Source: Mustelus asterias
Lineage: Eukaryota
DNA: 64,000 nucleotides
Direction: 5' to 3'
Assembly (NCBI RefSeq): GCF_964213995.1
Contig: NC_135815.1
Coordinates: 54,932,001 to 54,996,000, forward strand
In this document: one piece after another, positions 4,230-58,856 of the stretch
Layout of the letters: the number at the start of each line of letters is the position of its first letter
Numbering within the stretch: the first letter of the stretch is position 1
Program-made: the position numbers and the translations under genes
Notes under the pieces: model-generated
Databases searched by the model: none
Seen by the model: only the letters and a program-made list of their open reading frames with translations
What the model was told of the DNA's origin: nothing

Positions 4230-5335
4230 TGTTTTTATAGTGATATAAATGGACGGCACGGTAGCACAGTGGTTAGCACTGCTGCTTCACAGCTCCAGGG
4301 ATCTGGGTTCGATTCCCGGCTTGGGTCACTGTCTGTGTGGAGTTTGCACATTCTCTTCGTGTCTGCGTGGGTTTCCTCCAGGTGCTTCGGTTTCCTCCCA
4401 CAGTCCAAAGATGTGCGGGTTAGGTTGAATGGCCATGCTAAAATTGCCCCTTAGTGTCTTGAGATGCGTAGGTTAGAGGGATTAGCGGGTAAATGTGTAG
4501 GGATATGGGAGTAGGGCCTGGGTGGGATTGCGGTCGGTGCAGACTCGATGAGCCGAATGGCCTCTTTCTGCACTGTAGGGTTTCTATGATTAAAGGCACT
4601 AATCACTCATAAGGCAGTGAGTGAACATATTGTGGGACAATTTATTTGAGCTATTCACACATATATACATGCATAGAAAGCTCGACAATTCAGAGCTGTG
4701 CTGTGCTCTGCCCACAGGCAAAAATGAAACTGAAACTGGATCACATGACACACTTCCCTTCAAGTGCAATCCTCTAAAAGCATATTATAACATTCCCCTT
4801 TCTTTTTAAAGACATCTGCCCCCCACTTCTTCAGAGGTATAACTACTTACAATAGATGTTCATATTTAGTTACCATTATATATGGACTGGTGAACCTATA
4901 AGGCTCTAAAGCGTAGAGATAATCTGCTAGTCTGGAGGTTTCTTCAATTGTTCACAGTGATCTGTGAGATTGTCATTCTGATTGCATTTGGGATTTAGTT
5001 TTCTATACAATTGAACAGTGGTTGAGGAGCTGGAATGCATTTGATTTGTCTTCAGTTATGTCTGACTGCAGTGCCTTTGTGTATAGTGATTTCACTAGTG
5101 ATTGTTCTGGTTGGCTCAGAACAAATCCTTGTCACCTCAGCTAGTTGCCACATGCCTTCTGTGGAATCCAGAATGTAAATTTGCTATCCCAACAAAGACA
5201 CAGCTAAGGAGTAGCCGGGGGTCTGAGGGTGGTTTCACCTTCACAGCAACACAGGTTGCATCTCTGGTGGTGGTAGGGGAGATGTTACACAATGTCCTGC
5301 AATACCAACTTCAATAGTATCTCGCCACGATGTAT
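4230..5335 (-). mobile_element. 3' end of a Gypsy element: LTR (4230-4792, interrupted by a SINE), PPT and integrase tail
   Basis: On the minus strand, PPT aaaaagaaaggggaa precedes TGTTATAATATGC (4792), and the LTR ends ...tatcactataaaaaCA (4230). Both ends match the LTR at 18443-18681. Internal QIYILDSTEGMWQL resembles QVHIPDPTTG-IWQP of the Gypsy at 14160/18040. Confidence 0.75.
4251..4590 (+). mobile_element. HE1-type V-SINE (tRNA head, CR1/HER1 tail)
   Basis: A box (gcacagtggttagc), B box (ggttcgattcc), V-domain (gtctgcgtgggtttcctcc), and a CR1-like tail ending ttctatga. Confidence 0.92.
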
Positions 5336-5567
5336 GTTGGTGTCAGTTTGGGACTTTCAGGGTCTAATAGCTAACATTGGACCGGCCATCCTGCTAGTCA
5401 GGGGACTAATGGAATAATGATCACGGAAGTCTACCTGCCTGATTCTGCCGCCTCTTGGGCCCACAGGACATGTCAGCCCTCAGGTCTCCCCTTCCACTGG
5501 AATAGCAGTCGCAGCATTAGGGCTGTTCATTCTCTGTCAGCTGTAAAGTGACATGACAGGAGGGTCA

Positions 5568-6180
5568 TGTGGTGAACCATCGTTGGTTCCCACCAGGTAG
5601 TACTGAGCCAGGGTCTGGCCAGTACTATGAGTCTGTATATATGTTGCTGTTGGGGTTAGGGTTGGGTTGTTCTACATGTTACTCTTGGGGTTAGGGTTGG
5701 GCTGTTCTACCTGTATTATAGTTATGATGGTACATCCCAGTCGGGCTCCGCCTCCTGGGAGAGGTATAAAGGTCACTGCTCTGTCTGGGACCCCTCAGTC
5801 TGGGATCGTGTATTATATATGGTAGCTCTATTGTAGTAGTTAATAAAAGCCTTTATTTCCTCGAGCATCTCTAGCCTCGTGAGTTATATCGCGCATCAAT
5901 TTTATTAACTACTACAGTAGAGCTACCATATATAATACACGATCCCAGACTGAGGGGTCCCAGACAGAGCAGTGACCTTTATACCTCTCCCAGGAGGCGG
6001 AGCCCGACTGGGATGTACCATAATAACTATAATACAGGTAGAACAGCCCAACCCTAACCCCAACAGTAACATGTAGAACAACCCAACCCTAACCCCAACA
6101 GCAACATATATACAGACTCATAGCACTGGCCAGACCCTGGCTCAGTACTACCTGGTGGGAACCAATGATGGTTCACCACA
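5568..6180. mobile_element. Palindromic LTR-derived element: full LTR 5568-5898 plus inverted U3-R copy 5900-6180, 5-bp TSD GGTCA
   Basis: 281-bp inverted arms (5568-5848 / 5900-6180) with about 5 mismatches. Termini TG...CA, TATAAA at ~5765, AATAAA at 5842. ggtca at 5563-5567 and 6181-6185. Confidence 0.9.
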
Positions 6181-6249
6181 GGTCACATGACCCTTTTGTA
6201 GGACTGAAGCTGCCACCCGCCTCTCACAATGCTGACCTTTAGATGGCAC

Positions 6250-6402
6250 CTAGGAAAAACAGGAGAACATTCACGCGGTTGATCCCAAATATGAAGAAAT
6301 TTTCTAATAAGGAGAGGTTAAGTAGGTTGGGCCTGTATTCGTTGGAAGAATAAGAGGCAACCTTATTTAGACATATAAGATTCTCAAGGAGCTTGACAGG
6401 GT
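6250..6402 (+). mobile_element. Old CR1 3' fragment, left part (continues at 9458)
   Basis: Decayed ERLSRLGLYSLE..RGNL...YKILKELDRV CR1 C-terminal motif. Confidence 0.75.
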
Positions 6403-6404
6403 TT

Positions 6405-9400
6405 TATGAATTCATTTACGGGATATGAGTGTTGCTGGCTAGGTCAACATTTATTGTCCATCCCTAGTTACCCTCCAGAATGTGGTTGAAGGTTGCCTTC
6501 TTGAACCACTGAAGTCACTGAGGTGTAGGTACACCCACATTGCTATTAGGGAGAGAATTCCAGGATTTTGACCCAGCAACAGTGAAGGAACAGCGATTTA
6601 TTTCCAAATCAGGATGGTGAGTGACTTGGGCCAGAACTTCCAGGTAGTGGTGTTCTCAGAGTATCTGCAGCTCTTGTACTGGTCATGGGTTTGGAAGATG
6701 CTGTCGAAGGAACCTTCATCAGTCCCTCTCGTGCATCTTATAGATGGTACACATTGCTGCTATTGCTTGTCAGTGGTGGAGGTTCTGAGTGTTTGTAGAA
6801 GGGGTAGCAATCAAGCTTAGTCCCGAATGGTGTCAAGCTTGCTGAGTGTTTTTGGAGCTGCACACATCCAGGCAAGTGGAGAGTATTCCATCACACTCCT
6901 GACTTGTGCCTTGTAGATGATGGACAGGCTTTGGGGAGTTTAGGAAATGAGTTCCTTGCCGCAGGATTCCTAGCCTTTGATCTGCTCTGGTAACCACAGT
7001 TTTTATATGGCTAGTCCAGTTCACTTTCTGGTTAATGGTAACCCCCAGGCTGTTGATAGCGGGGATTCAGCGATGGTAATGTCATTGAATGTCAAGGACT
7101 GATGGTTAGATCCTCTCTTGTTGGAGATGGTCATTGCCTGGCACTTGTGTGGCACAAATGTTACTTTCCACTTGTCAGCCCAAGTGAGAATATTGTCCAG
7201 GTCTTGCTGCATTTGGACATGAACTGCCTCAGTATCTGAGGAGTCACGCATAATACTGAACATTGTGTGAACATTCCCAGTTCAGACCTTATGATGGAAG
7301 AAAGGTCACTGATGAAGTAGCTGAAGATGATTGTGCCTAGGTCACCACCCTGAGGAACTCCTGGAGCTGAGATGAATGACCTCCGCCACCACAACCATCT
7401 ACCGTTGTGCTAGGTATGAATCCAACCAGTGGAGTGTTTTCCAGCTGATTCCCATTGAGTCCGGTTTTACTCAGGCTCCTTAATGCCATACTTGGTCAAA
7501 TGCTGACTTGACGTCAAGAGCTGTCACTCTCACCTCATTTCTGGCATTCTGCTCTTCTGTTCATGTTTGAAACAAGGTTGTAATGAGGTCAGGAGCTGAG
7601 AGACACAGGCCGAACCCAAACTGAACATTCACAAGTAAGTTATTGCTTAGTAAGCAGTGCCTGATAGCACTGTTGATGACCTCTTCCATCACTTTACTGA
7701 TGATTGAGAGTAGATTTATGGGGGGGCAGTAATTAGCCAGGTTGGATTTTTCCTGTTTCTTGTGTACAGGACATAACTGGGCAATTTTCCCCATTGCTGG
7801 GTGAATGGCAGTGTTGTAGCTGTACTGGAACATCTTGCCTAGAGGCATGGCAAGTTCTGGAGCACAAATCTTCAGGACTATTGCCGGAATATTGGCAGGG
7901 CCAATAGCCTTTGCAGTATCCATGCCTTCAGCAGTTTCTTGATATCATGTGAAGTGAATCAAATTAACCAAAGACTGACATTTGTGATGCTGGGGACCCC
8001 CCGAAGGAGGCCGAGGTGAATCATCCACTCAGCACTTCTGACTGAAGATTGTTGCAAATGCTTTAGCCTTATCTTTTGCACTGATGTGCTGGGCTCCTCC
8101 GTCCTTGAGGATGGGGATATTTGTGGAGTTTCCTCCTCCAGTAAGTTGTTTAATTGTCCACCACCATTCATGCTGGATGTGGCAGGACTTTAGAGCTTAG
8201 ATCTGATCTGTTGCTTGGGGTTGGCTTAGCTCTGCCTATTACTTGCTGCTTATGCTGTTGGGCATGCAAGTAGTCCTGTGTTGTAACTTCACCAGGTTCA
8301 ACTTCACCAGGTTCAACTTCACCAGGTTGATGCCTCACGTTTAAGTATGTCTGGTGTTGTTCCTGGAATGCCCTCCTGTGCTATTCATTGAAATAGGATT
8401 GATCCCCTGGCTTGAAGGTAATGTTAGAGTGGGAAAGTAGGCTGGTCCATGAAGTTACAGATTGTGGTTGAGTACAATTCTGCTGCTGCTGATGGCCCAC
8501 AGCACCTCATGGATGCCCACTATTGAGTTGCTAGATCTGTTCAAAGTCTATCCCATTGAGCATGGTGGTAGTGCCACACAACACAATGAAGGGCATCCTC
8601 AATGTGAAGACAGCTCTTTGTCTCCACAAGAACTGCGCAGTGGTCACTCCTACTGACACTGCCATGGGCAGATGCATCTGCAGCAGGCGTATTGGTGAGG
8701 ACGAGGTCAAGTAAGCTTTTCCCTCTTGTTGGTTCCCTCACTACCTGCTGAACTTCCAGTCCACCAATTATGTCTTTTAGGACCTGGCCAGCTCAGTATG
8801 TGGTGGTGCTACTGAGTCATTCTTGGTGATGGACATAAATTCCCCACCCAGGGTACATTCTGTGTCATCAGCTGAGGGGGGACAGTACATGATAATCAGC
8901 AGGAGGTTACCTTGCCCATGTTTGACCTTAAGCCATGAGACTTCATGTGGTCCAGAGTTGATGCTGAGAACTCCCAAGGCAACTCCCTCCTGTCTGTAAA
9001 CCGCTATGCTGCCACTTCTGCTGGGTATGTCCTGCTGGTGAAACAGGACATACCCAGGAATAATGATGGTGGTGTCTGTGAGTATGACTATGTCAGGCTG
9101 ACTAGTGTGTGAGAGACAGCTCTCCCAACTTTGGCGCAAGACAGGATAGTCCCTTTGTAGTTGTTGAATACAACTGAGTGGCTTGCTAGGCCATTTCAGA
9201 GGGTATTTAAGAGTCACCCGTATTTCTGTGGATCTGGAGTCACATGTAAGCCAAACCAGGACGAACATTAGTGAGCTAGCTTTTACAACAATTGATAATG
9301 GTTTCATGGACATCATTAGATTTTTAATTCCAGATGTTTTATTGAGTTTAAATTCCACCATCTGCCATGGTGGGGTTTGAACCCGGTTCCCTGGAGGGTT

Positions 9401-9457
9401 ACCCTGGGTCTCTGGATTACTAGTCCAGCGACAATACCACTGCACCATCACCTCCCC
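6405..9457 (-). mobile_element. Decayed APE-RT LINE (CR1/Jockey-group, clade not determined) with a tRNA+Deu SINE-like 5' end
   Basis: APE motifs (QPDIVILT, SGPHEVSW, YCPPS, PTRG..LLDLVLT, SDH) and RT motifs (KA.GP.NIP, QFGF, GVPQG, WADKWKVTF). The 3' tail is shared with Deu-SINEs. 9150-9457 is a tRNA-like head plus Deu domain. Confidence 0.85.
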
Positions 9458-10248: not shown

Positions 10249-11043
10249 CAAATGTGTAAACAGCGTACAGAGCTACAGTTTCTTGACTCAGCTGTGTCCG
10301 AACCAGACATGCAAGCCACAAAAATGTACCTAGCAATTGGGAATGAAGGTCTACACAGGCTGAACATATCAGGATTAACAGCAGAAGAGCTAAAGGATCC
10401 CCAGTCATGTTAAACTTCTGTAGTTATCGATTAGAGTTCATGTCATTTTGAAAACAGCCTACAGAATCCATAGACAATTTTGTCAGCAGGTGCAGAGAAA
10501 AGAGTGCAGACTGCGATTTTTCAAACACAGAGTGAACAGACAGAACTATTGAGTTGGCTAATACATTCACTCCGCTGGAAGAATTCCAGAAAGATCTGCT
10601 AGACAAGCCCAAAATAAGTAACATCGAAGAACCACTCAAGGATGGACGTAAGTACGACATGATCCTTGCAGGTTAATAAAGTTTATAGGTCCTAAGTACA
10701 ATCCCAATATTTGACCCGTTTACTAGAACACCCAAACCTAGCAAGCACGTGGCCTTCTGCATGCACCAAGGAAATACCCAACTTTCCTTCAATTCTGCAA
10801 GGCTTGCAGCAGTCAGGGCCAGTGGCAGTAGCGGTGCACTAAAGCAAAGGTTGCTGCAGCTACAAAGGGTCATGTGCTGAGCAAAACAGATCATACACAA
10901 TGTTACCTTCAAGCAATAAGAATGACCATCGGGTATCCCATCAGAAATACATGAGGTGATTGAGGAATCAAAAAATTATGATGATGCACACGATGAGATG
11001 AAGAGCGGTGAATACATGTTTCACACCATCAATATTGTGCCAA

Positions 11044-11424
11044 AGGAAATGCACATCCTTTCTCAACAGTTCCTTCAGTGACGAAGACCTCTGAACAAAA
11101 TTGATAATGTTTGGAGAGAAGAAATTACAGAGACCTAGACATCTTTGAAGATTTTCCTTCCTCTTGAAGAGTAGGCATGGCTTTAATATCCTCTATTTTA
11201 CTTTGATCAAGATGTACGTCAGTGCTGGAATAAATAGAACTGAAGAAATTGACCTGTTGCATGTTGATGTTGTATTTCAGACTGTTGACACCAATGCTTC
11301 ATTATGTACCACTTGCTTCAACATGTGCAGATTATGGTCATGTTCTTGCTTTGTTCTTCCCACAATAACAATGCCACCGGTGATACAGTGGTGCATCGAT
11401 GGTTCAGTGCATGTAATGCCATCC
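11044..11424 (-). repeat. Inverted copy of the Gypsy RT segment 12385-12760
   Basis: The reverse complement aligns along its length (roughly 85% by eye). The ORF track shows matching peptides at 11164(+) and 12350/12379(-). Confidence 0.9.
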
Positions 11425-11550
11425 ATGTGGAAAATATAGATGCCATCATACCATCTAATGTGTTTGCCAATGTTAAATGATCTGTCCTAAGAAAGTTGAC
11501 AACCACTCATTCTTGGCCAAGATTGACACAGAGCCAAGTACCAACAAACT

Positions 11551-11655
11551 TGCCAAACTTTTACCGCTTTGCCTGCACGAGGCCAATGGAGAATGCTGTT
11601 CAGCGAGTCTCATCCACCCCGATTCTGGGGCAGGCGTGCCGGTAAAATTCTGGCA
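11551..11655. mobile_element. Short Harbinger-type MITE inside the Gypsy protease
   Basis: Imperfect TIR tgccaaacttttaccg ... cggtaaaattctggca, splitting the protease reading frame. Confidence 0.55.
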
Positions 11656-14195
11656 GCTACCTCTGTGATTTCTAAAAGACATGGAGAACCATGGTGAATC
11701 CTACTGCTGTGGAACTCTCAGTGATATAATGGTTCACTGACTCCATGCGCAGGATCCTTAGTCCTGAAGTATGAGTACAATAAATCTGCCTGGGTGGCAC
11801 AGATGTTCTGCATCATGGAAACTAAAGGTTGCAATACTACCAGCTTGCCATTCGATCACACGAGGGAAAATCCATGGAATCAGTCAGAAAGTAATCCTAG
11901 CACCTCAGTTCATGATCTAAAATTGAAATATCCAGAATGTCTCAACAAAATTGGCAGTTTCAAGTGAGCTGCAACATTACACTTGCTGGAGAATGCAGCA
12001 TCCACTGACAAGTCAAATTAAAGGTCAAACTAGATAAAATGGAGAAAGATGGTATCATTAGAAGAGTACAAGATCGCACATACTGGTGCAGCTCAATTAC
12101 ATATGTCCTAAAGAAGGACCGATCATTGAGAGCATGCTTTGGTCCACAACATTCAAGCTCAACTTTGAAACATTGTCCTTACAAAATACTATATTGGAAG
12201 AGTTGAACAAGAAATTTGCAGGTGCAAAATTATTTTCAAAACGTGATACCAAGCATGCTACTGGTCCACACATCTTGCAGAGAAGTTCCAAGCTTAATAA
12301 ATTTCAGACCCTGCTCAGCCAATATTACTTTCAATGACTTCCTTTGCAGTTAGCTCTTAGTCAGAATCTCTTTCAAGCTCACAAGAACGGCATTACATGC
12401 ACTGTACCATCGATGTACCACTGTATCACCGATAGCATTGCCGTTGTGAGAAGAACAAAGCAAGAACATGACCATATTCTGCTCTTGTTGATGCAAGCGG
12501 TATATAATGAAGCATTGGTGTCCAACAGTCTGAAGTACAACATCAACATGCAACAGGTCAATTTCTTCAGTTCTATTTATTCCAGCACTGACATACATCT
12601 TGATCAAAAGTAAAATAGAGGATATTAAAGCCATGCCTACTGTTCAAGATAAAGAAAATCTTCAAAGATGTCTAGGTCTCTGTAATTTCTTCTCTCATTG
12701 CCAGTTTTGCTCAGAAGTCTTCATCACTAAAGGAATTGTTGAGAAAGGATGTGCTTTTCACAAAGTCCACCAACACCTCTTCGTAGCACTGAATCAGCGG
12801 AAGAATCCACGTTGTAATTTTACAATCCTAGGGAGACAATTTCCCTGCAGATTGATGGCTCACAGATACCTTGCATACTATAAAAAGGCAAACCAATAGC
12901 ATTTGCTTCAAAGTCTGAAATGCAATCCAACCACTCCAACGTCAAGCAGGAAACATTAGCTTTAGTGTTTGGAATCATACATTTTCATACCTATCTATTT
13001 GGCAAATGATTTGTGGCAGAAACTATTCACAAGTCACTGGAGATGATTTGATGAAAACCATTGACCAGTGTACTACCAAGATTGAAATGTCTGTTGATAA
13101 ATATTCAATGTTATGACTGGAACATTTGGTACAAGCCAGTTAACTTGATGGATTTCCTAACCCAGTGAAAACAGAAAGTATATCCTTAGATCTAAAGGTG
13201 ACTTCACTAATATTGAACTTGAAGATGTTCTCCTGATTGATTTGATACATTTTGCAAAACACAAATGCCAGCAGCTATAAGAAGAAACAGTGAAAGATTC
13301 TACACTTCAGAAACTATGGATAACCATAATTGAAGGAAGACCTGATTCTATCTAGCATGTTCGTGGACATGTGAGTCCATTTTGGCCTTCCTGGGATGAG
13401 ATAGACATCGGGGAACAGGTCATCATGCCAGAATCTTTGTGACCTGATAGATTTAAACAACTTCATCACTCATACATGGGCATGAGAAAACTCACAAGAG
13501 AGGCAGTCCATTAGGTGGGCACGAACAATGATCTTGAAGTCAGTGTCAAGAAGTGTGAAGCATGTCAAGAGGATTGGCTGAGTCAGCATGATGAATCACT
13601 GATTCCAAATGAAGCTTCTACCTATCCTTAGTCCACAATCACATCTGATCTCTTCCATGTAAGTTGCACTGACTTTGTCATCATTATCAACTATTTTACC
13701 AAATACCTCATAATTCGACATTTGTACAATATGTCAAGCACAACTGATGCATACTGAGCGCTATTTTCAGTTTATCTGGTGCACCTAAAGCAATCATACG
13801 GAAAATTGTATGCCATTTCAAGATATGTGCGAGAAGTGAAATATTGATTACACTACTTCTTCTCATTACCCAAGATCTAATGGCCACGCTGAATAAATGA
13901 TTTGCACAGTGAAATTCCTAATTCTCAAACGTAGATAGACCAAACAAGGTCAACACAATGTTAAATATGAAAGCGACATCTGTAAGTGCAAATACTCCAT
14001 CACCAGCAGAGCTCATGTTTGGCAGACCAGTGCATACCAATGTACCCACTCTTCTCCATTCTGCTCACTAAGAAATTAGCAAGCAGCTTTTAAAACTGCA
14101 AGAGAAGATGACCAACATATACAACAAATGTGCCAATGCACGATTGCCAAGTTTACAGTTGGGACAACAAGTTCACATACCAGATCCCACAACAG

Positions 14196-17100
14196 GTCAT
14201 AGAGTCATCGAGGTTTACAGCATGGAAACAGGCCCTTCGGCCCAACTTGTCCATGGCGCCCTTTTTTTTAAAACCCCTAAAAAATTATGAAGGGTATAGA
14301 TAGGGTGAACAGTGGGAAGCTTTTTCCCAGGTCAGAGGTGACGATCACGAGGGGTCACGGGCTCAAGGTGAGAGGGGTGAGGTATAACTCAGATATGAGA
14401 GGGACATTTTTTACACAGAGTGGTGGGGGCCTGGAATGCGCTGCCAAGTAGGGTGGTGGAGGCAGACACGCTGGCATCGTTTAAGACTTACCTGAAAAGT
14501 CACATGAGCAGTCTGGGAATGGAGGGATACAAACGAATGGTCTAGTTGGACCAATGAGCGACACAGGCTTGGAGGGCCGAAGGGCCTGTTTCCTGTGCTG
14601 TACTGTTCTTTGTTCTTTGTTCATTTGTTCTTAGCTAATCCCAATTGCCCGCATTTGGCCCATATCCCTCTACATCCATCGTACCCATGTAACTATCTAA
14701 ATGCTTTTTAAAAGACAAATTTGTACCCGCCTCTACTACCTCTGGCAGCTTTTTCCAGACACTCACCACCCTCTGCGTGAAAAAATTGCCCCTCTGGACA
14801 CTCTTGTATCTCTCCCCTCTCATCTGAAACCTATGCCCTCTAGTTTTAGACTCCCCTACCTTGGGGAAAAGATATTGACTATCTAGCTGATCTGTGCCCC
14901 TCATTATTTGATAGACCTCTATAAGGTCACCCCTCAGCCTCCTACGCTCCAGAGAAAAAAGTCCCAGTCTATCTAGCCTCTCCTTATAACTCAATCCATC
15001 AAGTCCCGGTAACATCCTAGTAAATCTTTTCTGCACGCTTTCTAGTTTAATAATATCCTTTCTATAATAGGGTGACCAGAATTGCACACAGTATTCCAAG
15101 TGTGGCCTTACCAATGTCTTGTACAACTTCAACAAGACATTCCAACTCCTGTATTCAATGTTCTGACCGATGAAACCAAGCATGCCGAATGCCTTCTTCA
15201 CCACTCTGTCCATCTGTGACTCCACTTTCAAAGAGCTATGAACATGTACCCCTAGATCCCTTCATTCTGTAAGTCTCCCCAATGCCCTATTATTAACTGA
15301 GTAAGTCCTGCCTTGGTTCAATCCACCAAAATGCATCACCTCGCATTTCTCCAAATTAAACTCCATCAGCCATTTGTCAGCCTACTGGCCCAATTGATCA
15401 AGATCCCATTGCAATTGGAGATAATTTTTTTCACTGTCTACTATGCCACCAATCTTAGCGTCATCTGCAAACTTACTAACCATGCCTCCTATATTCTCAT
15501 CCAAATCATTAATATAAATGACAAATAACAATGGACCCAGCACTGATGCCTGAGGCACACCGCTGGTCACAGGTCTCCAGTTTGAAAAACAACTCTCTAC
15601 AACCACCCTCTGGCTTCTGTCAAGAAGCCAATTTTGTATCCATTTAGATACCTCACCCTGGATCCCGTGAGATTTAACCTTATGCAACAACCTACCATGT
15701 GATACCTTGTCAAAGGCCTTGCTAAAGTCCATGTAGACAACATCAACTGCACTGCCCTCATCTACCTTCTTGGTTACCCCTTCAAAAAACTCAGTCAAAT
15801 TTGTGAGACATGATTTTCCACTCACAAAGCCAAACTGACTGTCCCTAATCAGTCCTTGCGTCTCTAAATGCCTGTAGATCCTGTCCCTCAAAATACCTTC
15901 CAACAATTTACCCACCACAGATGTGAGGCTCACTGGCCTGTAGTTCCCAGGCTTTTCCCTGCAGCCCTTTTTAAACAAAGGCACAACATTTGCCACTCTC
16001 CAATCTTCAGGCACCTCAACCGTGACTATCGATGATTCAAATATCTCGGCTAGGGGACCCGCAATTTCCTCCCTAGCCTCCCACAATGTCCTGGGATACA
16101 CTTCATCAGGTCCCGAAGATTTATCTACCTTGATGCGCTTTAAGACTTCCAGCATCTCCTTCCCTGTAATAGGTACACTCCTCAAGACATCACTATTTAT
16201 TTCCCCAAGTTCCCTAACATCCATGCTTTTTCCAACAGTAAATACCGATGAGAAATATTCATTTAGGATCTCACCCATCTCTTGTGGATCCGCACATAGA
16301 TGACGTTGTTGATCCTTAAGAGGCCCAACTCTCTCCCTTGTTACTTTTTTGCCCTTTGTGTATTTGTAGAAGCTCTTTGGATTCTCCTTTGCCTTATCTG
16401 CCAAAACAATCTCATGTCCCCTTTTTGCCCTCCTGATTTCTCTCTTAATTCTACTCCTACACCCCCTATACTCTTCAAGGGTTTCACTTGATCCCAGCTG
16501 CCTATGCATGTCATGTGCCTCTTTCTTCTTCTTGACCAGGGCCTCAATATCCCGAGTCATCCAGGGTTCCCTACTTCTGCCAGCCTTGCCCTTCACTCTA
16601 AGAGGAATGTGTTTACCCTGAACCCTGGTTAACACACTTTTGAAAGCGTGCCACTTACCAGACGTCCCTTTGCCTTCCCACAGACTCCCCCAATTAACTT
16701 TTGAAAGTTCCTGCCTGATACAATCAAAATTGGCCTTGCTCCAATTTAGAATTTTAACTTTTGGGCCAGGCCTATCATTCTCCATAGCTATCTTAAAACC
16801 AATAGAATTCTGATCACTGGTCCCAAATGATCCTTCACTAACACTTCTGTCACCTGCCCTTCCTTATTCCCCCAGAGGAGGTCAAGTTTTGCCCCCTCTC
16901 TAGTCGGGCAATCCACATACTGAATGAGAAATTCCTCCTGAATACACTCAACAAATTTCTCTCCATCCAATCCTCTAATACCATGGCTGTCCCAGTCAAT
17001 GTTGGGAAAGTTAAAATCTCCGACTATTACCACCCTATTTTTCTTGGAGCTATCTGTAATCTCCTTACATATTTGCTCCTCAATTTCCCACCGACTATTT

Positions 17101-18012
17101 GGGGGCCTATAGTACAACCCTATCAAAGTGATTTCCCCCTTCTTATTTCTCAGTTCTGCCTATATAGACTCAGTGGCCGAACCCTCGGATATATCCCCTT
17201 TCAGTACGGCTGTGATGCTTTCCCTAATCAAAAGTGCTACTCCCCCTCCTCTCTTACCTCCTGTTCTATCTTTCCTATAGCATCTGCACCGTGGAACATT
17301 AAGCTGCCAGTCCTGTCCCTCCCTTAGCCATGTTTCAGTAATTGCTATAATATCCCAGTCCCACGTACTCATCAATGCCCTGAGTTCATCTGCCTTGCCC
17401 GTCATGCCTCTTGCATTGAAATAAATGCAGTTTAATCTGGACTTCCCTTGCTCTCTGTCTTGCTCTTGCCTGATCTGTCTGGTACTAGTATTACTGACAC
17501 TGCCTTTACTACTTAATGTGCTCTCTTTAACTTCTGTGCTGTCCTCAAACTTCTCTTCTGTCTCCCTACTGCTTTGGATCCCACCCCCCTGCCAAACTAG
17601 TTTAAACCCTCCCGAGTGGCTCTAGCAAATCTCCCCGCCAGGATGTTAGTCCCCCTCCAGTTCAAATGTAACCCATCCCTCTTGAACAGATCAGCCCTTC
17701 CCCAGAAAAGGTCCCAATGATCCAAAAATCTAAATCCCTGCCCCCTGCACCAGCTCTCAAGCCAGGCATTCATCTGCCTAATCCTCCTATTCCTACTCTC
17801 ACTAGCACGTGGTACCGGTAGTAGTCCTGAAATTACTACCTTCGAGGTCCTGCACGTTAGCCTTCTGCCTAACTCTCTATATTCACATTTCAGGACCTCA
17901 TCCCTTTTCCTACCTATGTCGTTGGTACTAATATGTACAACGACCTCTGGCTCACCCTCCCCCTTAAGAATGTCCTGCAAGCTCTCAGAGACGTCCTTGA
18001 CCCTGGCACCAG
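14196..18012 (-). mobile_element. HER1/CR1 LINE: complete but disrupted ORF2 plus 3' half of ORF1 (SGNH esterase), 5'-truncated
   Basis: ORF1 PGARVKDV..VHISTND..DGLHLN (17597-18010). ORF2 APE (IAITETWL, GDFNFP) and RT (YMDFSKAFD, GVPQ, FADD, RPHLEYCVQFWSP) split by stops and frameshifts. Tail repeat (ctatgact)n at ~14196. Confidence 0.95.
14281..14631 (+). mobile_element. CR1 3' fragment (subfamily of the 54-56 kb copy) nested in the 3' UTR of the preceding CR1
   Basis: Close match to 56058-56406, with a (tgttctt)n tail. The host resumes ccctaa|gctaatccc. Confidence 0.9.
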
Positions 18013-18442
18013 GGTATATGGCAGGTATATGGCAGGTATATGGCAACCAGCTGAAGTGATAAGAATTTGTTCTGAACCAAGGTCCTATGAAATTATTACA
18101 CACAAAGACACAATAGTGAGGTGAAACCAAAGACAAATCAGATCCATTCCAGCTCCTCAACCATCGAGTAGTCCTTTTGCATCTAGGAAAAGACCCTCAA
18201 AAGCAACCAGGAACAATACCTAAGGATGGCAATCCAGCAGATCACTGTGAGCAATTAAAGAAACCTCCAGACAAGGTTATCATTACACGGTCTGGACATA
18301 CCAGCAGATTACCTCTACACTTTTGTGACTCATAGATTCATCAGTTCTATACATCTATGTTCCGGCAACTAAACATGAACATGTATTGTAAATAGGTTTA
18401 CTTCTTTGGAAGGGGGAAATTATTCCTAAAAGGAAAGGGGGA

Positions 18443-25759: not shown

Positions 25760-26120
25760 GGGGCGATGGCCTAGTGGCATTATCGCTAGACTATTAATCC
25801 AGAAACTCAGCTAATATTCTGGGGACCTGCGTTCGAATGCCGCCACGGCAGATGGTGGAATTTGAATTCAATAAAAAAAAATCTGAAATTAAGAATCTAC
25901 TGGTGACCATGAAACCATTGTTGATTGTCAGAAAAACCCATCTGGTTCACTAATGCCCTCCAGGGAAGGAAATCTGCCATCCTTACCTGGCCTGACCTAT
26001 ATTTGACTCCAGAGCCACAGCAATGTGGTTGAGTCTCAACTGCCCTCAGGCAACTAGGGATGGGCAATAAATGCTGGCCAGCCAGTGATGCTCACGTCTC
26101 ATGAATGAATTTTTAAAAAA
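25760..26120 (+). mobile_element. Deu-SINE (SacSINE1-like)
   Basis: tRNA-like head, Deu core (aatctgccatccttacctggcctgacc...gactccagagccacagcaatgtggttga), tail ctagggatgggcaataaatgctggcc. Confidence 0.88.
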
Positions 26121-34400: not shown

Positions 34401-34774
34401 GTGGTCATTTTAAAAGTTAGATATATGCTGTTTTCCTGATGGAAGTCAGCCACCAGTGATTATTATATTTACAACAGCCATCAGAGTAAAGCACAGTCTT
34501 CTGCGGCAGTGGTGGGCAGGAAAAGCTATGTGAGACCTAAGTTGCAACATACGGAATGGCTATCTGCACTTTGGGAGCAAACTGTCCATGATGCCTCAGG
34601 TGCCTCCCCAATCTACCCTTTTCCATATCCTCCCTTTTCCAAACAAGGGAATGGAGATTCCCACTGCCAAATCCATGCCCCTGTTCAAAGCTGTACCCTT
34701 TGACAAACTGACTAAGTATAGCAGGAAATGTGAAGACAGAGTTCTCAGAGCAGTGAACAGTTAAACTCAATACA

Positions 34775-36301
34775 AAAGCAGAAAATGCTGGAAAATCTTA
34801 GCAGTTCTGACAGCGTCTGTGGAGAGAGAATAGAGCTAACCTTTCAAGTCTGGATGACCCTTCACCAGAGCTGGGGACAAAAAAAATAGGGTGAGATTTA
34901 TACTGTAAGGTTTGATTTGATTTGATTTATTATTATCACATCTTAGTACACAGTGAAACGTATTGTTTCTTGCATGCTATACAGACAAAACATACTATTC
35001 ATGCAGAAGGAAAGGAGGGAGTGCAGAATGTAGTGTTACAGTCATAGCTAGGGTGTAGAGAAAGATCAACTTAATGCAAGGTAGGTCCATTCAAAAGTCT
35101 GATGGCAGCAGGGAAGAAGCTGTTCTTCAGTCAGTTGGTACGTGACCTCAGACTTCTGTATCTTTTTCCCAATGAAAGAAGATGGAGGAGAGAATTTCCG
35201 GAGTGTGTGGGGCCCTTAATTATACTGGCTGCTTTGCCAGTGGGAAGTGTAGACAGAGCCAATGGATGGAAGGCTGGTTTGCATGATGGATTGGGCTAAA
35301 TTCACAACCTTTTGTGGTCTTGCGAACTTGGGCAGAGCAGGCACCATACCAAGCTGTGATACAACCAGAAAGAATGCTTTCTATGGTGCATCTGTAAAGG
35401 TTGGTGAGAGTCATAGCTGACATGCCAAATTTCCTTAGTCTTCTGAGAAAGTAGAGACGTTTGTGGGCTTTCTTAACAATAGTGTCGGTATGGAGGGATC
35501 AGGACAGTTGTTGATGATCTGGACACCTAAAAACTTGAAGCTTTCGGCCATTTCTACTTCCTTCCCATTGATGTTGACAGAGGCATGTTCTCCACTACGC
35601 TTCCTGAAGTCGATGACAATCTCCTTCATTTTGTTGACGTTGAGGGAGAGATTATTGTTGCCGCACCAGTTCACCAGATTCTCTGTCTCATTCCTGGACT
35701 TTGTCTCATCATTGTTTGAGATCCAACCCACTACGGTGGTGTCATCAGCAAACCTGAAAATCGAGTTGGAGGGGAATTTGGCCACACTCTAAGGGTGTTT
35801 ATTTTCATTTCTTACATTGTGTTTTTTTAAATTTTGCTTTCCATTTTGTTCCCTTCATTTCACTAGAGCTGTCTCTTACATCTCCTTGGTCACCCTTTGA
35901 CACTCAGCTTACCTCTGTTCTAACTTAGGGATTCTGATCTCTTAATAGACAACTATCAGACCCTTCTGAGCCTTGATCACCACCATTTACATTCACTTTG
36001 GGTGGGATTTTCTGGCCGCGTCGCCCCAAAACCCGAAATTCGCTTCTTTGTCTTTTTGTCTATGTCAATTACCACCCCTCCTCCGCCCCCCCCCCACTGC
36101 CCCCCCCCCCTCACCCCACCAGTATAAAATCACATTCTATTTTCTTTGTCTTCAGCTCTTGAGAAAGGTCATCCAGACTCAAGGCGTTGGCTCTATTCTC
36201 TCTCCACAGATGCTGTTGGACCTGCTGAGATTTTCCAGCATTTCCTGTTTTTGTTTCAGATTCCAGCATCTGCAGTAATGTGCTTTTTATTCTTCGAATT
36301 C
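34775..36301. mobile_element. Penelope-like non-autonomous element with inverted termini, interrupted by Rex1 and a MITE fragment
   Basis: 34775-34872 is the inverted copy of ~36155-36255. Flanking duplication aactc(a/g)ataca (34764-74 / 36302-12). Degenerate hammerhead motif in both arms. Confidence 0.7.
34911..35787 (-). mobile_element. Rex1/Babar LINE 3' portion
   Basis: FRFADDTTVVG, WCGNNNLSLNVNKMKEIVIDFRK, YRCTIESILSGCITAWYG; (tttga)n tail. Confidence 0.92.
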
Positions 36302-36528
36302 AACTCGATACATTATCATCATCATGCTAAACCTCAACTCTGGTAAACCAAATATCTGCCTGATGGAAATAGTCTGATGTGTGCACTCTGTGACCTCGGA
36401 AAACTGCACGGATGGAGAAGAGGGAAAGCGGTGCAGCTACCCTCAGTAAAGGAGAGAAGAGAGGTAAATAATGAATAATGAAACAAAGGTTCCCTCCTCT
36501 TACTTGCTGATAAACTACCAGCAGCGGC

Positions 36529-36714
36529 TGTGGAGAGAAACAGAGTTAACTTTTCAGCTCAATGGCTTTTTATCAGAGCATTCTGATGAATGGTCATTGA
36601 CCTGAAATGTTAACTTTGTCTCTCTCCACAGATGCTGCCCGACCTGCTGAGCATTTCCAGCATTTTCTGTTTTCACTTCAGATTTGCGGCGTCTGCAGTA
36701 TTTTGCTTTCGTCT
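36529..36714. mobile_element. Palindromic Penelope-like mini element
   Basis: 36529-36577 inverts 36582-36630. Duplication cagcagcggctgt at 36519-31 and 36715-27. Confidence 0.75.
36574..36618 (+). ncRNA. Minimal type I hammerhead ribozyme motif (slightly decayed)
   Basis: CTGATGA (36583-89), stem II ggtca/tgacc, GAAA (36604-07), then TGTTA where the canonical form is CGTTA. Stem I is cagag/ctttg. Confidence 0.6.
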
Positions 36715-37721: not shown

Positions 37722-37973
37722 ATTAAAAATACAATTAACACAATTACTCATACTCAAAATCAAATGTCTAAACTCCCCTTTCCTTTGGCACCCAAAACAA
37801 GTCAGATGCTTATCTAAACTTGGAAGATTAACCACTTGGTTTGGGTACAGTGTTCATGGTTCATTTACAGGCTGAGATTTCTTGGGCCTTCCATTTACTT
37901 CCAGCCAGGTTGTCTCTTTAAATCTCTTCTTACTCCCCATTCAACATAGGCATCTCTGGCATCTTAAGCATGG

Positions 37974-38949
37974 TAAGAAGTCTCACAACACCAGGTTAAA
38001 GTCCAACAGGTTTATTTGATAGCAAACGCCACTAGCTTTCGGAGCGCTGCCCCTTCGTCCGGTGAGTGGGAGATCTGTTCACAAACAGGGCATATAAAGA
38101 CACAAACTCAATTTACAGAATAATGATTGGAATGCAAGTCTTTACAGCTAATCAAGTCTTAAAGGTACAGACAATGTGAGTGGAGAGAGCATTAAGCACA
38201 GGTTAAAGAGATGTGTATTGTCTCTGGACAGGACAGTTAGTGAGATTTTGCAAGTCCAGGCAAGTCGTGGGGGTTACAGATAGTGTGACATGAACCCAAG
38301 ATCCCAGTTGAGGCCGTCCTCATGTGTGCGGAACTTGGCTATCAGTCTCTACTCAGCGACTCTGCGTTGTCGTGTGTCATGAAAGCCACCTTGGAGAACG
38401 CTTACCCGAAGATCAGAGGCCGAATGCCCATGACCGCTGAAGTGTTCCCCAACAGGAAGAGAACAGTCTTGCCTGGTGATTGTCGAGTGGTATTCATTCA
38501 TCCGTTGTCGTAGCGTCTGCATGGTTTCCCCAATGTACCATGCCTCGGGCCATCCTTTCCTGCAGGTAGACAACGTTGGCTGAGTTGCAAGAGTATGTAC
38601 CATGTACCTGGTGGATGGTGTTCTCACGTGAGATGATGGCATCCATGTCGATGACCCGGCACGTCTTGCAGAGGTTGCTGTGGCAGGGTTGTGTGGTGTT
38701 GTGGTCACTGTTCTCCTGAAGGCTGGGTAGTTTGCTGCGGACAATGGTCTGTTTGAGCTTGTGCGGTTGTTTGAAGGCAAGACGTGGGGGTGTGGGGATG
38801 TCCTTGGCGAGATGTTCGTCTTCATCATTGACCCGTTGAAGGTTCCGGAGGAGATGTCGTAGCTTCTCTGCTCCGGGGAAGTACTGGACGACGAAGGGTA
38901 CTCTGTCCACCGTGTCCCGTGTTTGTCTTCTGAGGAGGTCGGTGCGGTT
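37974..38949 (-). mobile_element. Penelope-like element 3' part (RT thumb/linker, GIY-YIG endonuclease, pLTR)
   Basis: DRVPFVVQY, CKTC, YSCNSANVVY, WYIGETMQTLRQRMNE, VGEHFS motifs. TSD ttaagcatgg (37964-73 / 38950-59). Confidence 0.92.
38020..38070 (-). ncRNA. Hammerhead ribozyme motif in the Penelope pLTR (core mutated)
   Basis: Minus strand cacCGGACGA-aggggcagcgctcc-GAAA-gctagtgg. One mismatch to the CUGANGA core. Confidence 0.55.
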
Positions 38950-39320: not shown

Positions 39321-40765
39321 CATAGAACATAGAACATAGAACATTACAGCGCAGAACAGGCCCTTCGGCCCACGATGTTGCACCGACCAGTTAAAAAAAA
39401 ACTGTGACCCTCCAACCTAAACCAATTTCTTTTCGTCCATGAACCTATCTACGGATCTCTTAAACGCCCCCAAACTAGGCGCATTTACTACTGATGCTGG
39501 CAGGGCATTCCAATCCCTCACCACCCTCTGGGTAAAGAACCTACCCCTGACATCGGTTCTATAACTACCCCCCCTCAATTTAAAGCCATGCCCCCTCGTG
39601 CTGGATTTCTCCATCAGAGGAAAAAGGCTATCACTATCCACCCTATCTAAACCTCTAATCATCTTATATGTTTCAATAAGATCCCCTCTTAGCCGCCGCC
39701 TTTCCAGCGAAAACAATCCCAAATCCCTCAGCCTCTCCTCATAGGATCTCCCCTCCATACCAGGCAACATCCTGGTAAACCTCCTCTGCACCCTCTCCAA
39801 AGCCTCCACATCCTTCCTGTAATGTGGGGACCAGAACTGCACACAGTACTCCAAGTGCGGCCGCACCAGAGTTGTGTACAGTTGCAACATAACGCTACGA
39901 CTCCTAAATTCAATCCCCCTACCAATAAACGCCAAGACACCATATGCCTTCTTAACAACCTTATCTACTTGATTCCCAACTTTCAGGGATCTATGCACAC
40001 ATACACCTAGATCCCTCTGCTCCTCCACACTATTCAAAGTCCTCCCGTTAGCCCTATACTCAACACAACTGTTATTCCTACCAAAGTGAATTACCTCACA
40101 CTTCTCCGCATTAAACTCCATCCGCCACCTCTCGGCCCAACTTTGCAACCTGTCTAAGTCTTCCTGCAGACTACGACACCCTTCCTCACTGTCTACCACA
40201 CCACCGACTTTGGTGTCATCAGCAAATTTGCTAATCCACCCAATTATACCCTCATCCAGATCATTAATAAATATTACAAACAGCAGTGGCCCCAAAACAG
40301 ATCCCTGAGGTACACCACTTGTAACCGCACTCCATGATGAATATTTACTATCAACCACCACCCTCTGTTTCCTATCCGCTAGCCAATTCCTGATCCAATT
40401 TCCTAGATCACCCCCAATCCCATACATCTGCATTTTCTGCAGAAGCCTACCATGGTGAACCTTATCAAACGCCTTACTAAAATCCATATATACCACGTCC
40501 ACTGCCTTGCCCCCATCCACCTCCTTGGTCACTTTCTCAAAAAACTCAATAAGGTTAGTAAGGCACGATCTACCTGCCACAAAACCATGCTGACTATCAC
40601 CTATCAATTCATTACTCTCCAAATAACTATAAATCCTATCCCTTATAATTTTTTCCAACATCTTGCCGACAACAGAAGTGAGACTCACCGGTCTATAATT
40701 CCCGGGGAAGTCTCTGTTCCCCTTCTTAAACAATGGGACAACATTCGCTAACCTCCAATCTTCTG
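39321..40765 (-). mobile_element. Young 5'-truncated CR1 LINE (distinct subfamily)
   Basis: Uninterrupted RT-to-C-terminus frame; tail (ttctatg)n. Confidence 0.95.
39417..40733 (-). CDS. CR1 ORF2 RT domain, open 438 aa, N-terminally truncated
   Basis: NYRPVSLTS, QHGF, YMDFSKAFD, GVPQGSVLGP, FADD, RPHLEYCVQFWSP. Confidence 0.8.
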   Translation of the reverse strand: MFKKGNRDFPGNYRPVSLTSVVGKMLEKIIRDRIYSYLESNELIGDSQHGFVAGRSCLTNLIEFFEKVTKEVDGGKAVDVVYMDFSKAFDKVHHGRLLQKMQMYGIGGDLGNWIRNWLADRKQRVVVDSKYSSWSAVTSGVPQGSVLGPLLFVIFINDLDEGIIGWISKFADDTKVGGVVDSEEGCRSLQEDLDRLQSWAERWRMEFNAEKCEVIHFGRNNSCVEYRANGRTLNSVEEQRDLGVCVHRSLKVGNQVDKVVKKAYGVLAFIGRGIEFRSRSVMLQLYTTLVRPHLEYCVQFWSPHYRKDVEALERVQRRFTRMLPGMEGRSYEERLRDLGLFSLERRRLRGDLIETYKMIRGLDRVDSDSLFPLMEKSSTRGHGFKLRGGSYRTDVRGRFFTQRVVRDWNALPASVVNAPSLGAFKRSVDRFMDEKKLV

Positions 40766-41039
40766 TTCCCCAAAACCCACAGTACCAAATTCACATCTCA
40801 TTGAAGCAGGAGCCAGCAGTGGTGGAAAGCTGGAAAGGGCAGAGTTGGCTGGAGGGCAAACTTGGGTCCAAGCATTTCGGAGGAAGGCAGAGATAGAGAC
40901 CTTAACCCTCTATTCTTCAAGAGAGCGATATTGGAATTGCACCAACAGAGAGTGAATGCCTTCACGTCCAGTCAAGGAAGTACTACGTTATGGTTGAGAG
41001 TATAGCATTCTCCACTTCTGGCAGTGCATTTTGTCCCCA

Positions 41040-46200: not shown

Positions 46201-46560
46201 CTTTTTATTCATTCATGAAACATGGGCGTCGCTGGCTAGCCAGCATTTATTGCCCACCCTAGTTGCCCTTGGAGGACACTTGAGAGTTAACCATATCTCT
46301 GTAGCTCCGGAGTCACATGTAGGTTAGACCAGGTAAGGACAGCAGATATCCTTCCTTATAGGACTTTAGTGAACCAGATGGGCTTTTCCAAAATCGACAA
46401 TGGTTTCATGGCCATCGGTAGATTCTTAATTGCAGGTTTTTTTATTGAATACAAATTCCACCATCTACCGTGGTGGGATTTGAACCCAGGTCCCCAGAAC
46501 ATTAACTGAGTTTCTAGATGAATAGTCTAGCGATAATACCACTAGGCATCACCTCCCCGA
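46201..46560 (-). mobile_element. Deu-SINE (SacSINE1-like) inside the 5' LTR
   Basis: Reverse-complement match to 25760-26120. Confidence 0.88.
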
Positions 46561-50858: not shown

Positions 50859-51589
50859 CATCTACTGTTGAATTGTTTTATAACCAAAAACCTGTACAAA
50901 TAAATTGCTAGGGGCCCTCAAGGAGGGCTGTCTTGCAATGTAATGCATTGTACAGAAAATGGAAGTTTTTGGTTTCATTTATTTTTAAAATTTTTGTTGT
51001 GCACATTAGTTTTATCTTTTATTTAAAGGGACAGAAGGGAATCTGTTAATTGTGTGTGAATTTAACTTGTGCATTGGGTGTTAACTGGGCATTCACTTAT
51101 GCCCTCACTAAATAGAAATGGACTAAAACTGTGCTTGTGGGAATCAGAGGTCTATACTTGTAACTCTCTAAATAAACATAGAAATGCATAAAGACTGCCT
51201 CCAATTCTATTCTTCACCAACTGGTTTGCTGGAATAGAACACACTAGGCCACGGAAAAACACCTTCAAGATAGGCACTTATAGAATGGACAAGGGTGATT
51301 AGCTGACTTTTGAACAGAATTTTGGATGGTTTGTTTGATAAAATCTGTTTGGAATGGTTGTTCTGGGATGGCTTTATTTTGCAGCATTGTGGCTAAGAGG
51401 AAGTTGTGATGTTGATTGACAAGAGGAAAGGTAAGGTGTGTGACTTTCATCAAATGAGGTTTGGCATTGTGTTGAAGGGAACTGTGCTCAGGTGAGGCAT
51501 TGACAGACAGGCCAGCCTGTCCTTCCTCCTGCTCCTTCTCAGATACTCGCTGATTACTTGTATCCTCAATTTGGGTTCCACAATAATGT

Positions 51590-53998: not shown

Positions 53999-53999
53999 T

Positions 54000-58756: not shown

Positions 58757-58856
58757 TAAGAAGTTTAACAACACCAGGTTAAAAGGTTGGACTTTAACCT
58801 GGTGTTGTTAAACTTCTTACTGTGTTTACCCCAGTCCAACGCCGGCATCTCCACAT
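58757..58856. mobile_element. ~100-bp palindromic Penelope terminal fragment
   Basis: taagaagtttaacaacaccaggttaaa / tttaacctggtgttgttaaacttctta; TSD catccagccag (58746-56 / 58857-67). Confidence 0.82.

What the first reader, a model, noticed from the sequence alone, without database searches (positions are those of the whole stretch)
5563..6185. LTR turned into a foldback: complete LTR plus inverted U3-R, apparently integrated as one unit with a 5-bp TSD
Seen: 5568-5898 has all LTR hallmarks (TG...CA, TATAAA ~5765, AATAAA 5842). It is followed by ATTTTATT... and a 281-bp inverted copy of 5568-5848 with about 5 mismatches. The whole 613 bp starts TG, ends CA, and is flanked by GGTCA on both sides. 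Established: Gypsy-type integrases join TG...CA ends and make 4-5 bp TSDs. Solo LTRs are normally not palindromic, and DIRS inverted LTRs use a tyrosine recombinase and lack such TSDs. Inference: the palindrome existed before integration and carried two U3 ends. One mechanism is snap-back of plus-strand strong-stop DNA, where the post-LTR ATTTTATT pairs with AATAAAA and RT copies back to the U3 end. That would give a MITE-like parasite or by-product of an LTR retrotransposon. Its promoter would also read into its own antisense copy, producing hairpin RNA.
Basis: partly seen in the sequence, partly recalled or inferred. Interest (0 to 1): 0.82.

Follow-up and report, generated by a model that had tools for sequence, protein, structure and literature searches.

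The report
Retrotransposon end folded into a palindrome
One end-repeat of a jumping gene sits here joined to a mirror image of itself, most likely a copying error that the element's own enzyme pasted into the genome; if such errors recur, they would be a built-in source of self-silencing hairpin RNA.

Summary
The structure is real: a 331-bp LTR-like unit (5568-5898), one extra base, and a 281-bp inverted copy of 5568-5848 (5 substitutions, no indels), with GGTCA on both sides (chance about 0.15%). Best reading: a dead-end by-product of reverse transcription of a Ty3/Gypsy-type element, probably one whose primer-binding site is complementary to its own R region (Tf1-like self-priming). Plus-strand strong-stop DNA folded back, giving two U3 ends that integrase inserted (confidence 0.5). 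New and unexplained: the inverted repeat resumes outside the element (14 of 16 bases; 8 of 62,661 simulated sites), a sign of host template switching that keeps a post-insertion origin alive (0.25). No parent element or second copy could be found with these tools. Ten paper searches showed no report of this structure.

The parts
5563..5567 (+). Left copy of the 5-bp direct repeat GGTCA (candidate target-site duplication)
   Evidence: chance 92 of 63,377 positions
5568..5898 (+). Complete LTR-like unit, 331 bp, TG...CA; family unidentified
   Evidence: ordered motifs 0 of 5,000 shuffles, 19 of 2,512 tiles; 5' end fits the CsRN1 motif 7 of 7, 3' end 5 of 7
5568..5848 (+). Left arm of the palindrome (U3 and start of R, boundaries inferred)
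5641..5714 (+). 35-bp tandem repeat, 2.1 copies, in U3 (mirrored at 6034-6107)
5765..5801 (+). TATAAA (5765) and Inr-like motif (A at 5797, 32 nt downstream): likeliest transcription start, by consensus only; mirrored at 5983 and 5951
   Evidence: consensus motifs recalled
5814..5821 (+). Second TATA-like motif; would place a start near 5840-5845, close to the candidate self-primer
   Evidence: inference
5838..5848 (+). Candidate self-primer segment, contains AATAAA (5842-5847); last bases of the left arm
   Evidence: role inferred, not shown
5849..5899 (+). 51-nt spacer: rest of R, U5, LTR-terminal CA (5897-5898) and one extra A (5899); no special fold of its own
   Evidence: z -0.42; 64 of 200 shuffles fold as well
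5900..5910 (+). Candidate primer-binding-site position, 1 nt after the LTR; also the first bases of the inverted arm; no TGG of a tRNA-type site
   Evidence: circular as evidence of the parent's sequence
5900..6180 (-). Inverted copy of 5568-5848, ending in a second U3-type terminus
6181..6185 (+). Right copy of GGTCA
5556..5571 (+). Left member of the outside extension of the inverted repeat (12 flank bases plus the first 4 of the element)
   Evidence: (I8)
6184..6199 (-). Right member of the outside extension, 14 of 16 complementary, offset 7 nt from the main arm
   Evidence: I8; 8 of 62,661 simulated sites reach 14 or more, this site included

Best explanation
A dead-end by-product of reverse transcription of a Ty3/Gypsy-type LTR retrotransposon, inserted by its integrase. 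Step 1 (inferred): the parent has, 1 nt after the 5' LTR, a site complementary to about 11 nt of its own R region, as self-priming elements do. Step 2 (known for Tf1, inferred here): the plus-strand strong-stop DNA copies that primer and so ends in a single-stranded tail complementary to its own R. Step 3 (inferred): instead of making the second strand transfer, the tail folds back over the 51-nt R-U5 loop and reverse transcriptase copies 281 nt back to the U3 end, giving a 613-nt hairpin. Step 4 (product shown, route inferred): two U3 ends are joined in one concerted reaction, either after the hairpin is made double-stranded or as two identical hairpins whose arms are then paired by host repair, leaving a 5-bp duplication. 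Step 5 (inferred): later, a short host template switch at the base of the long stem copied 7-12 nt of the left flank to the right side. It cannot retrotranspose as a unit; read-through transcription would give hairpin RNA against the parent family.
For: Both outer ends fall exactly on the U3 terminus and carry a 5-bp direct repeat, the marks used to assign aberrant reverse-transcription products to a single integration (PMC1950507). The inner junction has the geometry of the published self-primer criterion, a complement of 10 bp or more starting 0-5 bp after the LTR (PMC6317226), and no TGG. About 50% of Tf1 cDNA keeps a single-stranded PBS tail (PMC11042837). An 11-nt tail pairs back with probability 0.83 in a DNA model. 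A solo LTR would offer no pairing at the fold point and only 2 nt at the return point; an 11-nt shared word that would have erased the right GGTCA was not used. Self-priming elements occur in vertebrates.
Against: The parent's post-LTR sequence is not observed: the complement is there by construction. No parent or second copy was found. The best promoter match puts the start at 5797, 41 nt before the candidate primer, whereas Tf1-type primers sit at the RNA 5' end; from 5797 the LTR plus 11 nt folds no better than shuffles (z 0.55). The termini fit Sushi motifs only 5 of 7 at each end. The spacer shows no special fold. The outside extension (8 of 62,661) is rarer by chance than the 5-bp repeat and needs a second event. 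No paper found shows integration of a snap-back product.
Confidence: 0.5

Rival explanations
1. Post-insertion host template switching. An ordinary solo LTR (or an element with a self-complementary PBS) was already here with its GGTCA duplication; a stalled fork left the template at the LTR end, copied the LTR backwards, and returned, with further short switches that produced the outside extension (the '3-2-1-4' class of event, on a larger scale).
For: The outside extension continues the inverted copy into the left flank from where the arm stops, interrupted by 7 nt that equal the last CA plus GGTCA of a normal right junction; it is reached at 8 of 62,661 simulated sites. Events of this order make inverted repeats without prior similarity (PMC5453318). 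A separate inverted duplication of about 385 bp exists in the same window (11046-11429 against 12380-12759).
Against: Needs the exit at the LTR end plus 1 nt with no pairing and the return at the U3 terminus on 2 nt of homology; a crude figure for both is 1e-4. The published events are a few tens of bases, not 281. Reading the extension as simply part of one continuous arm needs 3 changes in 12 bp against 5 in 281 (Fisher p 0.003).
Confidence: 0.25
2. Two separate cDNAs were integrated by their U3 ends in opposite orientation in one reaction, and host repair joined them through the short PBS/R complement, deleting the rest.
For: Gives the same ends, duplication and junction as the best explanation.
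Against: Needs two large deletions that meet at the one short complement; the arms are nearly identical (5 of 281), as expected from copying one molecule, though two copies of a young family would be too.
Confidence: 0.1
3. A self-propagating miniature inverted-repeat element, derived from an LTR and moved by a Gypsy-integrase-like or Ginger-like transposase.
For: 613 bp, no coding capacity, long terminal inverted repeats beginning TGTGG, which fits the TGTNR pattern of Ginger termini (PMC2836005).
Against: Duplication is 5 bp, not the 4-bp GC-rich or RTATAY-type sites of Ginger1/2; arms are 281 bp, above the 40-270 range; one copy in 64 kb; no PPT for an RNA route; a full U5 end is retained inside.
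Confidence: 0.08
4. Penelope-like inverted pseudo-LTR made by target-primed reverse transcription.
For: Such elements form inverted repeats (PMC8557442), and three other short fold-backs in the window have 10-12-nt direct words on their flanks.
Against: No hammerhead by Rfam or by core pattern (none of 12 window matches lies in the element); no similarity to those fold-backs; symmetric TG...CA ends with a 5-bp repeat.
Confidence: 0.04
5. Assembly or library artefact (fold-back chimeric read).
For: Palindromes are a known artefact class (recalled); raw reads not seen.
Against: Five substitutions with a CpG-type change, in both arms; ends at biological termini; distinct flanks; nearest N run is at 62885.
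Confidence: 0.03

Closest known systems
Tf1/sushi-group self-priming Ty3/Gypsy elements (Tf1, Tf2, Tj1, sushi-ichi)
   Same: A complement to an LTR-internal segment starts just after the LTR's CA, with no tRNA-type site; the cDNA tail this produces is documented (passages read).
   Different: No fold-back insertion was found described; the likeliest start site is 41 nt upstream of the paired segment; termini match CsRN1-type better than Sushi-type motifs; no internal domain is present.
Template-switching complex LTR insertions of Triticeae, rice and maize (PMC1950507)
   Same: Aberrant reverse-transcription product integrated as one unit with a 5-bp duplication (passages read).
   Different: Those are large direct-orientation fusions with three LTRs and normal U3 and U5 ends; this is a small inverted product with two U3 ends.
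Ordinary solo LTR
   Same: TG...CA unit with promoter and poly(A) motifs between 5-bp repeats.
   Different: A 282-nt addition lies between the LTR's CA and the right repeat.
Ginger1/Ginger2 DNA transposons and their non-autonomous copies (PMC2836005)
   Same: TGTNR termini and long inverted repeats; the authors speculate that Ginger1 inverted repeats came from two LTRs in opposite orientation (passages read).
   Different: Duplication length and sequence, no transposase between the arms, no evidence of mobility.
Local template-switch mutation, type 3-2-1-4 (PMC5453318)
   Same: Order of switch points gives an inverted repeat with a spacer; fits the 7-12-nt outside extension well (passages read).
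   Different: Known events are tens of bases; here the main arm is 281 bp and both switch points coincide with LTR termini.
Penelope-like inverted pseudo-LTRs (PMC8557442)
   Same: Retroelement-made fold-back of a terminal repeat (passages read).
   Different: No hammerhead, symmetric integrase-type ends, 5-bp repeat.

Membership tests
Ty3/Gypsy-type LTR | TG...CA termini | tested here: met
   5568 and 5897-5898; a CA near the junction is not rare on its own (3 in the spacer)
Ty3/Gypsy-type LTR | TATA-like motif followed by AATAAA near the 3' end | tested here: met
   0 of 5,000 shuffles, 19 of 2,512 tiles; motifs as in PMC3601003
Ty3/Gypsy-type LTR | 4-6-bp target-site duplication | tested here: met
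   GGTCA both sides, 92 of 63,377 by chance; no empty site seen
Ty3/Gypsy-type LTR | Homology to the LTR of a gag-pol element of known clade | not testable with these tools
   No eukaryotic genome or repeat library on hand; translated-frame searches negative or weak. An endogenous retrovirus parent is not excluded: Gamma motifs fit 7 of 9 and 6 of 7
Solo LTR | Single LTR directly abutting both copies of the duplication | tested here: not met
   282 nt intervene on the right
Tf1/sushi self-priming group | Complement of 10 bp or more to the LTR starting 0-5 bp after the LTR end | tested here: inconclusive
   Formally met (starts 1 nt after), but the complement is the inverted arm itself
Tf1/sushi self-priming group | [quoted passage not shown] | tested here: inconclusive
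   Two candidate starts, 5797 and about 5840-5845; no RNA data
Tf1/sushi self-priming group | Three-duplex 'pretzel' RNA structure | tested here: inconclusive
   5838-5910 folds with z -2.69, 1 of 200 shuffles, but the spacer alone does not and the sequence after the PBS is lost
Tf1/sushi self-priming group | Sushi-type terminal motifs | tested here: not met
   5 of 7 at each end; CsRN1 5' motif 7 of 7, a set built from insect and schistosome LTRs
Tf1/sushi self-priming group | Chromodomain integrase and RT phylogeny | not testable with these tools
   No coding part in the element; parent not found
MITE | Short, non-coding, terminal inverted repeats, target-site duplication | tested here: met
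MITE | Many dispersed copies moved by a cognate transposase | not testable with these tools
   One copy in 64 kb; genome not available
Ginger1/Ginger2 | TGTNR termini | tested here: met
   TGTGG at both ends
Ginger1/Ginger2 | 4-bp duplication at CCGG/CCGT or RTATAY sites; repeats of 40-270 bp | tested here: not met
   5-bp GGTCA, 281-bp arms; only the Tdd elements have 5-bp duplications
TRIM | Two direct terminal repeats with PBS and PPT between them | tested here: not met
   Repeats are inverted; longest purine runs in the spacer 3 and 7 nt
Penelope-like pseudo-LTR | Hammerhead ribozyme motif in the repeat | tested here: not met
   (some clades lack it)
DIRS | Tyrosine-recombinase insertion without target-site duplication (the no-duplication feature is recalled) | tested here: not met
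   5-bp repeat and TG...CA ends present

The most novel reading that the evidence does not exclude
Self-priming LTR retrotransposons carry an inherent flaw: their plus-strand strong-stop DNA ends in a complement of its own R region, so they recurrently shed 'fold-back LTRs' with two U3 ends that integrase inserts genome-wide. This would be an unrecognised class of insertion, hidden from LTR finders and mistaken for MITEs, that marks self-priming families, seeds hairpin-RNA loci against the parent, shows that U5 ends are dispensable for integration in vivo, and offers a one-step route from LTRs to the terminal inverted repeats of Ginger-like DNA transposons.
Probability: 0.3. Interest if true: 0.8.

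Novelty: new variant of a known kind. Interest (0 to 1): 0.56.

Why it matters
If it recurs, it is a fossil of a reverse-transcription intermediate: the fold point would map the primer boundary of an animal LTR family whose priming is unknown, and the ends would show concerted integration of two U3 ends in a germline. Convergent promoters over a palindrome are a ready source of double-stranded RNA against the family (5797-5951 folds at -91.4 kcal/mol, 0 of 200 shuffles). It would also give a concrete intermediate for the open question of how an LTR element could become a Ginger-type DNA transposon. If unique and post-insertional, it is an unusually long template-switch duplication of local interest only.

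Tried and rejected
Second copy or parent in the window: none; the only other hit was 14 nt, E 0.40. Paralogous empty site: flank searches by blastn, nhmmer and tblastn hit only LINE pieces on either side, none across the junction. Structured RNA: one sub-threshold snoRNA hit outside the element, 0 at gathering thresholds in the window. Translated frames of the element as probes for copies in protein collections: no candidate (only near-length proteins searched; these frames are not genes, so the blanks are weak); one search gave 2 unnamed hits of 42-44% identity in 4-5 short stretches, not the pattern of a DNA relative; they were not examined. One of three homologue searches and the prokaryotic genome, phage and plasmid collections were left unused as off-target; viral and metagenome contig collections stayed unchecked. 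A 7-nt snap-back was rejected on folding probability. Reading the purine-rich flanks as retained PPT was considered: 8 or more purines in 9 nt occurs at 3.7% of window positions, so it is not compelling, though not excluded. Reading the 5-bp repeat as a side effect of one continuous arm was disfavoured. The bacterial promoter scan is not informative for this sequence. Papers: ten searches listed no title or abstract on a palindromic solo LTR with a duplication; PMC5210030 mentions a guppy ERV with one inverted LTR, a different structure; PMC5445492 and PMC6934838 describe post-LTR hairpins that do not pair with the LTR.

Full report
Observation. The window holds at 5568-6180 a 613-bp palindrome: arms 5568-5848 and 5900-6180, 281 nt each, 51 nt apart, differing at 5 of 281 positions with no indel. 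GGTCA lies on both sides; a 5-bp direct repeat at this spacing occurs at 92 of 63,377 positions, this one included. The arm differences include a CpG-type change in the right arm and one that, by the 35-bp U3 repeat, falls in the left arm, which argues for ageing in a genome and against a read artefact. Divergence is 1.8% (95% interval 0.6-4.2%); if the epaulette-shark rate of 7e-10 per generation applied (PMC10587355, passages) that is 4-30 million generations, but the host was not identified, that rate excludes repeats, and conversion between arms would bias it.

Is 5568-5898 an LTR? It starts TG, ends CA, has TATAAA at 5765, an Inr-like motif 32 nt on (A at 5797), a second TATA-like motif at 5814 and AATAAA at 5842 (consensus motifs recalled). 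The ordered pattern was met by 0 of 5,000 shuffles and 19 of 2,512 window tiles (post-hoc test). Against Table 3 of PMC3601003 (passages) the 5' end fits CsRN1 7 of 7, the 3' end 5 of 7; Sushi fits 5 of 7 at each end and Gamma 7 of 9 and 6 of 7. The CsRN1 training set is insect and schistosome (supplement passages), so this is a lead, not an assignment. No parent was found: no second copy in the window, nothing in Rfam at threshold, no candidates from two translated frames, two weak multi-stretch hits left unexamined. 'LTR' therefore rests on anatomy.

The inner junction. The arm begins 1 nt after the LTR's CA and pairs with 5848 backwards. That is the geometry used to call self-priming elements: a complement of 10 bp or more starting 0-5 bp after the LTR (PMC6317226, passages). 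In Tf1 the primer is the RNA's own 5' end and pairs with the PBS just after the LTR; the group includes vertebrate elements (PMC4600332; bioRxiv 10.1101/2022.12.06.519325, abstract and passages; PMC5341516, passages). About 50% of Tf1 cDNA keeps the PBS as a single-stranded 3' tail (PMC11042837, passages). It follows, by inference, that in such elements the plus-strand strong-stop DNA ends in a complement of its own R region and can fold back. The caveat is decisive: everything from 5900 is the arm, so this copy cannot show what followed the LTR in the parent. Against a textbook Tf1 arrangement, the better promoter match starts 41 nt before the paired segment; from 5797 the LTR plus 11 nt folds no better than shuffles (z 0.55), from 5838 it does (z -2.69, 1 of 200, partly by construction), and the spacer alone does not.

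The outer junctions. Both ends are the U3 terminus and abut GGTCA. Flanking duplications are the accepted sign that an aberrant reverse-transcription product was integrated as one unit (PMC1950507, passages: 2 such complexes among 400 Triticeae insertions). For a post-insertion origin from a solo LTR, the fork must leave at the LTR end where nothing pairs and return at the U3 terminus on 2 nt of homology, passing over an 11-nt shared word that would have removed the right GGTCA.

The inverted repeat resumes outside the element, 5556-5571 against 6184-6199, 14 of 16 bases, offset by 7 nt. Dropping the element in silico at every window position with a 5-bp duplication gave a match this good at 8 of 62,661 sites, this one included (post-hoc). 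With the element removed the site is a 12-bp stem; such stems cover 0.26% (G-T only) to 1.2% (any two mismatches) of the window. Three readings: a pre-existing hairpin at the target (LTR elements show only a slight preference for palindromes, PMC6911290, passages, and the duplication here is off the hairpin's axis); a later short template switch at the base of the 281-bp stem, a known mutation class (PMC5453318, passages); or serial switches that made the whole arm after insertion. In the last two the right GGTCA still comes from a true right junction. Treating the extension as part of one continuous arm needs 3 changes in 12 bp against 5 in 281 (p 0.003). I favour the second reading, but the extension shows template switching at this locus and raises the post-insertion rival to 0.25. 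No paralogous empty site was found.

What it can do. There is no PPT-like run in the spacer, no tRNA-type site and no downstream direct repeat, so it cannot complete a retrotransposition cycle as a unit; by-product is more likely than parasite. The two promoters face each other (starts 5797 and 5951). A transcript from 5797 meets AATAAA at 5842 before the arm; the leftward one meets minus-strand signals at 5901 and 5852. Read-through would give a 52-bp stem with a 51-nt loop (-91.4 kcal/mol, 0 of 200 shuffles); the full 281-bp stem needs a host transcript. No expression data were available.

Comparison. It works like a self-priming Ty3/Gypsy intermediate caught by integrase; membership of the Tf1/sushi group is not established. 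It is not a TRIM (PMC6934838, passages), not a DIRS element, and lacks the hammerhead typical of Penelope-like repeats (PMC8557442, passages). It shares TGTNR ends with Ginger elements but not their duplications; the Ginger paper speculates that such inverted repeats arose from opposed LTRs (PMC2836005, passages). The fungal GalEa hairpin does not pair with the LTR (PMC5445492, passages); a guppy ERV with one inverted LTR is a different structure (PMC5210030, passages).

Novelty. Ten searches showed no paper on this structure; I saw listings for all and passages of 15 papers, none whole. The library lacks most subscription journals, including the primary Tf1/sushi papers (known to me only as citations), and Repbase and Dfam entries; bioRxiv supplements were closed, and supplements are not covered by the search, so a prior annotation may exist. 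Verdict: real, well beyond chance, most likely an integrase-inserted fold-back product (0.5, plus 0.1 for the two-molecule variant), single and without a known parent. New variant of a known kind; interest 0.56, rising to 0.8 if it recurs.

Noticed in passing
window 11046-11429 and 12380-12759: An inverted duplicate of about 385 bp (90% identity) placed 950 bp upstream of its source, with GGAAA near both junctions, inside a decayed region (about 10900-13900) whose translation looks by eye like a Gypsy-type pol (recalled motifs). Pfam did not confirm this on 6 of 6 stop-free pieces.
   Followed up: partly
window 60889-61050, 58754-58822, 36521-36638: Three short asymmetric fold-backs of other repeat families, each with a 10-12-nt direct word on its flanks; related unfolded pieces at 37973-38059, 36120-36286, 34772-34905. 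A hammerhead-like core pattern lies at 36583-36608; a second pattern found none near them and Rfam found none. They look like Penelope-type inverted pseudo-LTRs (recalled resemblance).
   Followed up: partly
window 14630-18196 (-), 39420-40790 (-), 48894-50859, 53998-56253 (+): Several LINE copies with RT, endonuclease and, at 17600-18196, a GDSL esterase-like ORF, as in CR1/L2-group elements (group name recalled); a 751-aa open frame survives at 53998-56253.
   Followed up: partly
window 4586-5157 and 6243-6410: The element sits between decayed LINE pieces: the left matches the region upstream of the esterase ORF copy, the right matches LINE 3' ends. The 400 bp just left of the insertion match nothing else in the window.
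   Followed up: partly
window 5641-5714: The U3 tandem unit contains the vertebrate telomere hexamer TTAGGG in each copy; no role tested.
   Followed up: no
window 9363-9451 (-): A tRNA-Thr-like sequence inside a repeat that recurs at 25762-25928 and 46382-46558; probably a SINE head.
   Followed up: no
window 62885-63175 and 63262-63453: Two N runs within an AC-rich tandem array: an assembly gap far from the finding.
   Followed up: no
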